In this document: positions 40,682 through 40,766 of the stretch, piece after piece
How the letters are laid out: every line of letters begins with the position of its first letter
How positions within the stretch are numbered: the first letter of the stretch is position 1
From: Escherichia phage 121Q
Sequence record: NC_025447.1
DNA: 64,000 bases
Reading direction: 5' to 3' (one strand)
The notes under the pieces: generated by a model
What the model saw: only the letters and a program-made list of their open reading frames with translations
Databases searched by the model: none
What the model was told of the DNA's origin: nothing
Program-made: the position numbers and the translations under genes

Positions 40682-40766
40682 GCAGGTAAAGTGTTGATGG
40701 CGGCATACAGTACTTCCGATTCTGGGGGTGGGGTTCAAATCCCCATACCTGCTCAAAAATATAATA
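40682..40766 (+). other. tRNA-like element (acceptor stem + canonical T-arm, no standard anticodon arm)
   Basis: GCAGGTA...TGGGGTTCAAATCCCCA TACCTGC: 7-bp acceptor-like pairing and TPsiC-like arm, but the middle does not fold as an anticodon stem-loop. Confidence 0.3.

What the first reader, a model, noticed from the sequence alone, without database searches (positions are those of the whole stretch)
40682..40766. Second tRNA-like element with canonical T-arm but no anticodon arm
GCAGGTA...TGGGGTTCAAATCCCCA-TACCTGC forms a 7-bp acceptor-like stem and a textbook T-arm, but the central part does not fold as an anticodon stem-loop. It sits between MTHEEW-family genes and could be a tRNA pseudogene or a processing or recombination signal.
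Basis: seen in the sequence. Interest (0 to 1): 0.4.

Follow-up and report, generated by a model that had tools for sequence, protein, structure and literature searches.

The report
Ordinary phage glycine tRNA gene
The flagged element is a complete, already-annotated glycine tRNA gene (anticodon UCC) in the tRNA cluster of a giant E. coli phage; its anticodon arm exists but is weak, so the finding itself is ordinary.

Summary
Window 40682-40753 (+) is a tRNA-Gly(UCC) gene. ARAGORN draws a full cloverleaf, and the Rfam tRNA model scores it 41.7 bits against a threshold of 29. It is easy to miss, because the cloverleaf is 9.7 kcal/mol less stable than a competing fold. The window belongs to a PBECO4/121Q-like jumbo coliphage (Asteriusvirus). 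The same 73 nt are 100% identical in 19 phage records, while neighbouring ORFs vary at 17-27% of columns. Many of those records annotate it as tRNA-Gly(tcc). The two natural variants fit the cloverleaf. All five bacterial glycine identity determinants are present. GGA makes up 25% of the phage's glycine codons, against 8% in an E. coli sample. A conserved sigma-70-like promoter ends 12 nt upstream, and CCA is not encoded. Verdict: a functional, somewhat atypical phage tRNA that is already known, so interest is low. Of more interest is a neighbouring non-canonical tRNA-like RNA with a UCU anticodon at 41585-41666. It is found in 269 phage records, shows strong covariation and is mostly unannotated.

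The parts
40682..40753 (+). tRNA-Gly(UCC) gene, 72 nt including discriminator U73; no encoded CCA
   Evidence: ARAGORN; Rfam RF00005 41.7 bits; annotated tRNA-Gly(tcc) in identical copies in slurp01, SP27, G17, SHEFM2K (tRNAscan-SE score 46.7) and others
40682..40688 (+). acceptor stem 5' strand (G1 C2 A3 G4 G5 U6 A7), pairs with 40746-40752
40691..40706 (+). D-arm: 4-bp stem (two G·U pairs) and 8-nt loop UGAUGGCG with G18G19; U14 and G21 are atypical
   Evidence: read directly from the sequence
40708..40724 (+). anticodon arm: stem CAGUA/UUCUG with a U30·U40 mismatch, loop CUUCCGA
   Evidence: the natural variant A28G keeps the pair as G·U
40715..40717 (+). anticodon TCC (reads GGA and GGG)
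40725..40728 (+). 4-nt variable loop GGGG (host glyT also has a 4-nt variable loop); part of the G-run that can mispair with the anticodon
   Evidence: the G44U variant occurs in SHEFM2K and UE-S1
40729..40745 (+). T-arm UGGGG-UUCAAAU-CCCCA
40746..40753 (+). acceptor stem 3' strand plus discriminator U73
40641..40669 (+). sigma-70-like promoter GAGACA-17-TATAAT; the -10 hexamer ends 12 nt before the tRNA 5' end
   Evidence: TATAAT is invariant in 10 phages; tRNA-Ser 41491 and tRNA-Ser 43464 have the same layout. Consensus match only; function is inferred
40754..40779 (+). 3' trailer CAAAAATATAATAAAGGTGATTTAAT: no CCA, no terminator, and it carries the ribosome-binding site of the next ORF
40478..40654 (+). 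upstream neighbour: 58-aa MTHEEW-family ORF (phrog_10970, function unknown); context only
40780..40995 (+). downstream neighbour: 71-aa ORF (phrog_25670, function unknown); context only

Best explanation
This is a functional phage-encoded tRNA-Gly with anticodon UCC, one of seven tRNA or tRNA-like genes in the tRNA cluster of an Asteriusvirus (PBECO4/121Q-like) jumbo coliphage. The proposed mechanism is as follows. Host RNA polymerase starts at a sigma-70-type promoter whose -10 hexamer ends 12 nt upstream, giving a short leader (inferred). RNase P cuts the 5' end. The 3' trailer is trimmed and CCA is added enzymatically, because the gene encodes CAA rather than CCA after the discriminator (the sequence fact is shown; the pathway is inferred). 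Host GlyRS charges the tRNA, since it carries G1:C72, C2:G71, C35, C36 and U73 (the determinants are shown in the sequence; charging is inferred). It then decodes GGA, and probably GGG, adding to the supply from the host's own tRNA-Gly(UCC), glyT. This matters because the AT-rich phage uses GGA for about 25% of glycine codons, against about 8% in the host sample. The other tRNAs in the cluster fit the same logic (UCA, AGU, ACA, AGA, AAU, possibly AUA).
For: ARAGORN draws a full cloverleaf, tRNA-Gly(tcc). Rfam RF00005 scores 41.7 bits against a gathering score of 29 over the full model. The 73-nt sequence is 100% identical in 19 of 21 phage records and in one IMG/VR contig. In a ten-phage alignment, 3 of the 73 tRNA columns vary (two inside the 72-nt tRNA proper, the third just past the discriminator), against 48 of 177 and 36 of 216 in the flanking ORFs. 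None of 1216 non-overlapping 73-column windows is as conserved. The only variants are A28G, which turns A-U into G·U, and G44U in the variable loop. GenBank annotates the identical gene as tRNA-Gly(tcc), and the Sharanji paper lists it (PMC11895373). The identity determinants G1:C72, C2:G71, C35, C36 and U73 (PMC10464925, PMC9976931) are all present, as are G10-Y25:G45 and R4:Y69 (read). Codon usage: GGA is 25% of Gly codons in 70 window ORFs and 8% in 42 E. coli K-12 CDS. The promoter-like site 40641-40669 has an invariant -10, and two other tRNA units have the same 10-12-nt spacing; the rough chance of 3 of 8 strong sites landing this way is about 5e-7. The Sharanji paper reports a phage CCA-adding enzyme in a relative.
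Against: This is the weakest tRNA of the six ARAGORN-called tRNAs by covariance score. Rfam's default filters miss it on the whole window, and several GenBank relatives leave it unannotated. Its core is atypical: A8/U14 instead of U8/A14, G21, G15/G48, G37, and a U30·U40 mismatch. The cloverleaf is 9.7 kcal/mol less stable than a competing fold for the unmodified transcript. About half of the related phage records (24 of 45) lack the gene, so it is dispensable. No expression, processing or charging data were available. With near-identical copies only, there is almost no covariation evidence (one G·U-preserving change).
Confidence: 0.8

Rival explanations
1. It is still a working tRNA-Gly(UCC), but it is kept mainly as a defence-resistant replacement for the host tRNA. 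Its altered anticodon loop (G37 where glyT has A37) and unusual core would let it escape a host tRNA-targeting nuclease or survive host tRNA depletion during infection.
For: The anticodon loop is CUUCCGA, against CUUCCAA in host glyT. Overall similarity to glyT is low and no E. coli genome has a related sequence. The hypothesis that phage tRNAs carry anticodon-loop changes to evade anticodon nucleases is published (PMC10264068).
Against: That paper does not mention any tRNA-Gly-specific nuclease ('Gly' occurs 0 times), and I know of none in E. coli. The codon-usage gap already explains the whole set of cluster tRNAs. Half of the relatives do without the gene.
Confidence: 0.1
2. It is a decaying tRNA pseudogene. 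It keeps its acceptor and T arms, but its core and anticodon stem are degenerating and it no longer works in translation.
For: It has the lowest covariance score of the six ARAGORN-called tRNAs. It has a U30·U40 mismatch, A8/U14 and G21. The cloverleaf is not the minimum-energy fold. The gene is absent from 24 of 45 related records.
Against: The sequence is 100% identical across 19 records from E. coli and Salmonella phages whose flanks are only about 90% identical. A neutral sequence would have accumulated changes at the rate of its flanks. The anticodon, U33 and all five GlyRS determinants are intact. The variants seen are compatible with the structure. The promoter -10 is conserved.
Confidence: 0.06
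3. It is a tRNA-like processing or recombination signal and not a decoder. RNase P and RNase Z would cut there to punctuate transcripts of the small ORFs, or the element would serve as a crossover or attachment site.
For: There is no terminator between the tRNA and the next ORF, whose ribosome-binding site starts 14 nt after the tRNA. The region is mosaic, with the promoter-plus-tRNA unit present or absent between MTHEEW-family paralogs.
Against: A processing signal would not need a conserved anticodon loop or GlyRS determinants. No similar sequence exists in 5,426 E. coli genomes, so it is not an attachment-site core. The Sharanji paper describes these phages as lytic with no integrase. In Turkey3 the breakpoints fall at ORF boundaries, not inside the tRNA.
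Confidence: 0.03

Closest known systems
tRNA-Gly(tcc) as annotated in Asteriusvirus genomes (slurp01 PSLUR01_00033, G17_00191, SP27 EO157G_t0010, Sharanji gp225)
   Same: Identical 73-nt sequence, same position between a phrog_10970 ORF and a phrog_25670 ORF, same strand and same neighbours.
   Different: Nothing in the tRNA itself. Upstream of 40478 the window's gene content differs from these relatives.
E. coli K-12 glyT, tRNA-Gly(UCC) (NC_000913.3 4175673-4175747)
   Same: Same anticodon and same architecture, including the 4-nt variable loop. It shares G1:C72, C2:G71, U73, C35 and C36.
   Different: Low sequence similarity outside the universally conserved positions. glyT has U8/A14, A37, a perfect 5-bp anticodon stem and an encoded CCA, and its cloverleaf is within 0.9 kcal/mol of the MFE. 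The phage tRNA has A8/U14, G37, a U30·U40 mismatch, no CCA and a 9.7 kcal/mol gap.
tRNA clusters of large virulent coliphages such as T4 and T5 (general knowledge, not tested here)
   Same: Several tRNAs are clustered among small ORFs of unknown function. They favour A/U-ending codons that are rare in the host. Some lack an encoded CCA and depend on a CCA-adding enzyme.
   Different: There is no detectable sequence relationship: blastn at about 65-70% sensitivity found copies only in Asteriusvirus.

Membership tests
tRNA (Rfam RF00005) | Score at or above the family's curated gathering threshold over the full model | tested here: met
   41.7 bits against 29, model positions 1-71 of 71, E = 3e-6. 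It is found only with permissive filters; the default filters on 64 kb miss it.
tRNA (Rfam RF00005) | Four-arm cloverleaf: 7-bp acceptor, D-arm with G18G19, 5-bp anticodon stem with a 7-nt loop carrying U33 and a purine at 37, and a 5-bp T-arm with U54-U55-C56 and A58 | tested here: met
   ARAGORN drawing and Infernal alignment. One non-standard pair, U30·U40, lies in the anticodon stem.
tRNA (Rfam RF00005) | Conserved tertiary-core nucleotides U8, A14, A21 and an R15:Y48 pair | tested here: not met
   The gene has A8, U14, G21 and G15/G48 (read). The 8/14 pair is swapped rather than lost. All five sister tRNAs have U8/A14. These are near-universal features but not strictly defining ones.
tRNA (Rfam RF00005) | The cloverleaf is supported by evolution (conservation or covariation) | tested here: inconclusive
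   Conservation is very strong. Only two positions inside the tRNA vary, and both are compatible with the structure (A-U to G·U, and a variable-loop change). No diverged homologues were found.
Bacterial tRNA-Gly isoacceptor | GlyRS determinants G1:C72, C2:G71, C35, C36 and U73 (PMC10464925, PMC9976931) | tested here: met
   All five are present in the sequence. The tRNA-Gly consensus G10-Y25:G45 and R4:Y69 are present too.
Bacterial tRNA-Gly isoacceptor | The RNA is expressed, processed to about 75 nt, given a CCA end and charged with glycine | not testable with these tools
   No RNA-seq or biochemistry was available. CCA is not encoded, since the trailer is CAA.
tRNA pseudogene | Relaxed constraint: substitutions accumulate at the rate of neighbouring sequence, and functional positions are lost | tested here: not met
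   Only 3 of 73 columns vary (two within the tRNA proper), against 17-27% in the adjacent ORFs, and 0 of 1216 control windows are as conserved. The anticodon and identity elements are intact.
tRNA-gene attachment or recombination site | A matching core sequence in the host chromosome and an integrase in the phage | tested here: not met
   No match in 5,426 complete E. coli genomes. The Sharanji paper reports no integrase in this phage group.

The most novel reading that the evidence does not exclude
The tRNA's combination of a swapped 8/14 tertiary pair, G37, a mismatched 2-GC anticodon stem, and a competing fold 9.7 kcal/mol more stable than the cloverleaf that sequesters the anticodon is perfectly conserved. 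It could therefore be an adaptation and not just drift. One possibility is a tRNA whose folding into the active form depends on a phage or host modification or chaperone. Another is a body shaped to escape a host tRNA-targeting defence while still being charged by GlyRS.
Probability: 0.1. Interest if true: 0.4.

Novelty: already known. Interest (0 to 1): 0.1.

Why it matters
For the flagged element, very little. It is a standard component of this phage genus: a tRNA that covers a codon (GGA) the AT-rich phage uses three times more often than its host. It is already annotated in public records and listed in a publication. There are two practical lessons. First, divergent phage tRNAs with weak anticodon stems are easy to miss by eye, by free-energy folding and even by Rfam's default filters, which probably explains why the gene is missing from several GenBank relatives. 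Second, the follow-up exposed a neighbouring element that is far more interesting. It is a non-canonical tRNA-like RNA with a UCU anticodon, spread across many unrelated phage families, and it deserves its own investigation.

Tried and rejected
1. Free-energy folding did not give the cloverleaf. I did not take this as evidence against a tRNA, because controls showed what normal tRNAs do and the covariance model and ARAGORN agree with each other.
2. I searched for diverged homologues to obtain covariation. blastn in 'distant' mode against 50,697 phage records found only near-identical Asteriusvirus copies. Two IMG/VR pattern scans, each leaving part of the anticodon arm free, found one identical copy plus one unrelated GC-rich chance match, L014. 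The first scan attempt failed because of a queue.
3. Host origin or an attachment site: there was no match in the E. coli genomes.
4. Pfam on the flanking small ORFs gave nothing. PHROGs gave only families of unknown function.
5. Terminator scan: there is none downstream of the tRNA on the + strand.
6. Two literature searches for a described D-armless or non-canonical phage tRNA with a UCU anticodon found nothing relevant.
7. One E. coli fetch failed on a size limit.
8. For the neighbouring UCU element, the alternative 'variable-arm hairpin' pairing has no covariation support and was set aside.

Full report
WHAT IS THERE. The sequence at 40682-40753 (+) reads GCAGGTA-AA-GTGT-TGATGGCG-GCAT-A-CAGTA-CTTCCGA-TTCTG-GGGG-TGGGG-TTCAAAT-CCCCA-TACCTGC-T. 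ARAGORN calls it tRNA-Gly, anticodon TCC, and draws a complete cloverleaf. With permissive filters, the Rfam tRNA covariance model aligns it end to end (model positions 1-71 of 71) at 41.7 bits. The gathering score is 29 and E = 3e-6. The claim that the central part has no anticodon arm is not correct. The arm is C27-G43, A28-U42, G29-C41, U30·U40, A31-U39, with the 7-nt loop C32-U33-U34-C35-C36-G37-A38. A 4-bp D-stem (two of its pairs G·U) with G18G19 in an 8-nt loop precedes it.

The anticodon stem has one mismatch and only two G-C pairs. The anticodon CUUCC is complementary to the G-run formed by G43 and the variable loop. Minimum-free-energy folding therefore gives a different central hairpin. 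I measured this: the cloverleaf evaluates at -17.8 kcal/mol and the MFE at -27.5, a gap of 9.7. For the five other tRNAs of the cluster and for E. coli glyT, the gap is 0.1-4.0 kcal/mol. Rfam's default speed filters also drop this tRNA when the whole 64-kb window is scanned. Several GenBank relatives (PBECO4, phAPEC6, UB, CRJP21) do not annotate it, although they contain the identical sequence.

WHERE IT IS. The surrounding 3 kb matches 45 phage records at 85-93% identity, nearly all of them ~350-kb Escherichia or Salmonella jumbo phages of the genus Asteriusvirus (PBECO4-like). Window 38876-42633 is 100% identical to an IMG/VR contig of 348,532 bp. The gene opens a + strand cluster:
- tRNA-Gly(UCC) at 40682
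- tRNA-Ser(UGA) at 41491
- a tRNA-like element at 41585
- tRNA-Ser(ACU) at 43464
- tRNA-Met(CAU) at 43563
- tRNA-Asn(GUU) at 43728
- tRNA-Thr(UGU) at 45896
These are interspersed with small ORFs. The 'MTHEEW' ORFs belong to phrog_10970, of unknown function, and the ORF downstream of the tRNA belongs to phrog_25670. Pfam finds nothing for the MTHEEW and phrog_25670 ORFs.

IS IT UNDER SELECTION? Yes. The 73 nt are 100% identical in 19 of 21 phage records that contain it and in the IMG/VR copy. In an alignment of ten phages, 3 of 73 columns vary, and one of those lies beyond the discriminator. The upstream ORF varies at 48 of 177 columns and the downstream ORF at 36 of 216. None of 1216 non-overlapping 73-column windows is as conserved. 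The two variants inside the tRNA are A28G in UE-S1, which turns A28-U42 into G28·U42, and G44U in UE-S1 and SHEFM2K, in the variable loop. G44U leaves the cloverleaf energy almost unchanged (-17.8 to -17.3) but weakens the competing fold by 3.6 kcal/mol. That is weak evidence that the cloverleaf is the structure under selection. No more diverged homologues exist in the phage collection or in IMG/VR, so there is no deeper covariation test. The gene is accessory: 24 of the 45 related records lack it. In Turkey3, a MTHEEW-family paralog sits about 10 nt from the homologue of ORF 40780, with no tRNA in between.

CAN IT WORK AS A GLYCINE tRNA? Published determinants for bacterial GlyRS are G1:C72, C2:G71, C35, C36 and U73. 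The tRNA-Gly consensus also includes G10-Y25:G45, and R4:Y69 is preferred (PMC10464925 and PMC9976931). The phage tRNA has every one of these: G1:C72, C2:G71, G4:C69, G10·U25, G45, C35, C36 and U73, all read. Like host glyT, it has a 4-nt variable loop. It is otherwise very different from glyT, and nothing similar exists in 5,426 complete E. coli genomes, so it is not a recent capture from the host. It also has atypical features: A8 with U14 (the near-universal U8:A14 pair swapped), G21, G15 with G48, and G37. The gene does not encode CCA, since its trailer is CAA. Within the cluster, Ser(UGA), the UCU element, Met and Asn encode CCA, while Gly, Ser(ACU) and Thr do not. The paper on the close relative Sharanji reports a phage-encoded CCA-adding enzyme and lists the same tRNA set, including Gly (PMC11895373).

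WHY THE PHAGE HAS IT. In 70 long ORFs of the window (14,909 codons, 33% GC), GGA is 25% of glycine codons. In 42 annotated E. coli K-12 CDS (14,790 codons), it is 8%. The same contrast holds for the codons read by the other cluster tRNAs:
- UCA: 32% in the phage, 10% in E. coli
- AGU: 33% and 11%
- ACA: 40% and 10%
- AGA: 25% and 2%
- AAU: 71% and 37%
- AUA: 14% and 3%
This is the classic codon-compensation pattern (the hypothesis is summarised in PMC10264068). It is a correlation, not proof. The rival anti-defence idea from the same paper cannot be excluded, but nothing specific supports it for tRNA-Gly.

HOW IT IS EXPRESSED (inferred). A sigma-70-like site, GAGACA-17-TATAAT, ends 12 nt before the mature 5' end. 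Its -10 hexamer is invariant in ten phages. Equally strong sites end 10 nt before tRNA-Ser 41491 and 10 nt before tRNA-Ser 43464. Three of the eight strongest + strand sites fall in that 3-nt spacing window, which is roughly a 5e-7 event by chance, even though the total number of promoter-like sites is no higher than in shuffled sequence. No terminator follows the tRNA, and the ribosome-binding site of ORF 40780 begins 14 nt after it. The tRNA is therefore probably cut out of a transcript that continues into the next gene.

VERDICT. This is a genuine, conserved, somewhat atypical phage tRNA-Gly(UCC) that is already annotated and published. It is not a pseudogene and not a recombination signal. 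Interest is low.

NOTICED NEARBY (not the assigned finding). Four nucleotides after tRNA-Ser(UGA), at 41585-41666, lies a tRNA-like RNA that ARAGORN does not call. Rfam scores it 32.6 bits, but only by skipping the D-arm. It has a 7-bp acceptor stem, a T-arm, a purine discriminator, an encoded CCA and an anticodon-type hairpin with the invariant loop CUUCUAA (anticodon UCU). It has no D-arm, only 'UCUC'.

That element matches 269 phage records at 80-100% identity over about 80 nt. They span unrelated groups: Asteriusvirus, Felixounavirus, Sugarland-like, Mydovirus, rV5-like phages, Justusliebigvirus, a T4-like Pectobacterium phage, Kuravirus and Streptomyces phages. It is mostly unannotated or labelled 'tRNA-OTHER', and an HNH endonuclease gene often sits next to it.

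On 14 diverse copies, 99.3% of cells pair and 14 of 20 pairs show compensatory changes, with 0 of 500 shuffles reaching this. The short helix CUC/GAG encloses the anticodon hairpin and has two compensatory changes. A rival hairpin has none. Within Asteriusvirus, the element and a canonical but unrelated tRNA-Arg(UCU) occupy the same slot in a mutually exclusive way. This suggests the two are functionally equivalent. I found no description of the element in the literature searched.

Noticed in passing
window 41585-41666 (+): Non-canonical tRNA-like RNA with a UCU anticodon loop (CUUCUAA, invariant), an acceptor stem, a T-arm, a purine discriminator and an encoded CCA, but no D-arm. A short helix CUC/GAG appears to enclose the anticodon hairpin, followed by an invariant GUAAnUGGAGUAUG. 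It is found in 269 phage records from many unrelated families at 80-100% identity. It is mostly unannotated or labelled 'tRNA-OTHER', and often lies next to an HNH endonuclease gene. Covariation is strong: 14 of 20 pairs are compensatory and 99.3% of cells pair. In Asteriusvirus it alternates with a canonical, unrelated tRNA-Arg(UCU) in the same slot. No description was found in the literature searched..
   Followed up: partly
window 43464-43554 (+): tRNA-Ser with anticodon ACU, i.e. A at wobble position 34. As far as I know this is unusual for bacterial-type tRNAs other than tRNA-Arg(ACG). It is 100% identical in 16 Asteriusvirus records. AGU is 33% of the phage's Ser codons, against 11% in the E. 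coli sample. The Sharanji paper mentions a phage-encoded tRNA-specific adenosine deaminase, so A34-to-inosine editing is conceivable, and that would risk reading AGA..
   Followed up: partly
window 40478-40654, 40997-41179, 41690-41854, 41851-42015, 42012-42176 (+): At least five tandem or dispersed paralogs of a 54-60-aa 'MTHEEW...' protein (phrog_10970, function unknown, no Pfam hit) are interleaved with the tRNA genes. Gene-content differences between phages, including presence or absence of the tRNA-Gly unit, have their breakpoints at these paralogs..
   Followed up: partly
window 41453-41480 and 43425-43453 (+): Strong sigma-70-like promoters with an extended -10 (TGGACA-16-TATAAT and TTGACT-17-TATAAT, both preceded by TG) end exactly 10 nt before tRNA-Ser(UGA) and tRNA-Ser(ACU). 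This is the same layout as before tRNA-Gly and suggests each tRNA unit has its own promoter and a very short leader..
   Followed up: partly
window 40682-40753; whole-window Rfam scan: Rfam's default filters on the 64-kb window report only five tRNAs. They miss tRNA-Gly (41.7 bits) and the UCU element (32.6 bits), although both exceed the gathering score of 29 once evaluated. Several GenBank relatives lack these annotations..
   Followed up: yes
3' ends of all seven tRNA or tRNA-like genes, 40753-45980: Four genes encode CCA after the discriminator: Ser-UGA, the UCU element, Met and Asn. Three have CAA instead: Gly, Ser-ACU and Thr. All trailers begin C(C)AAAT/A-like..
   Followed up: no
L010 (Escherichia phage Turkey3) 1112-2124 compared with window 40476-40880: Presence/absence polymorphism. 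24 of 45 related records lack tRNA-Gly. Turkey3 carries other ORFs (504, 171 and 213 nt) in this region, and a MTHEEW paralog directly abuts the homologue of ORF 40780..
   Followed up: partly
window 38876-42633: This stretch is 100% identical to IMG/VR contig UViG_2706795820_000001 (348,532 bp), so the window comes from that phage genome or a near-identical one. Upstream of 40478 its gene content differs from the annotated relatives, which are only about 57% alignable there..
   Followed up: no
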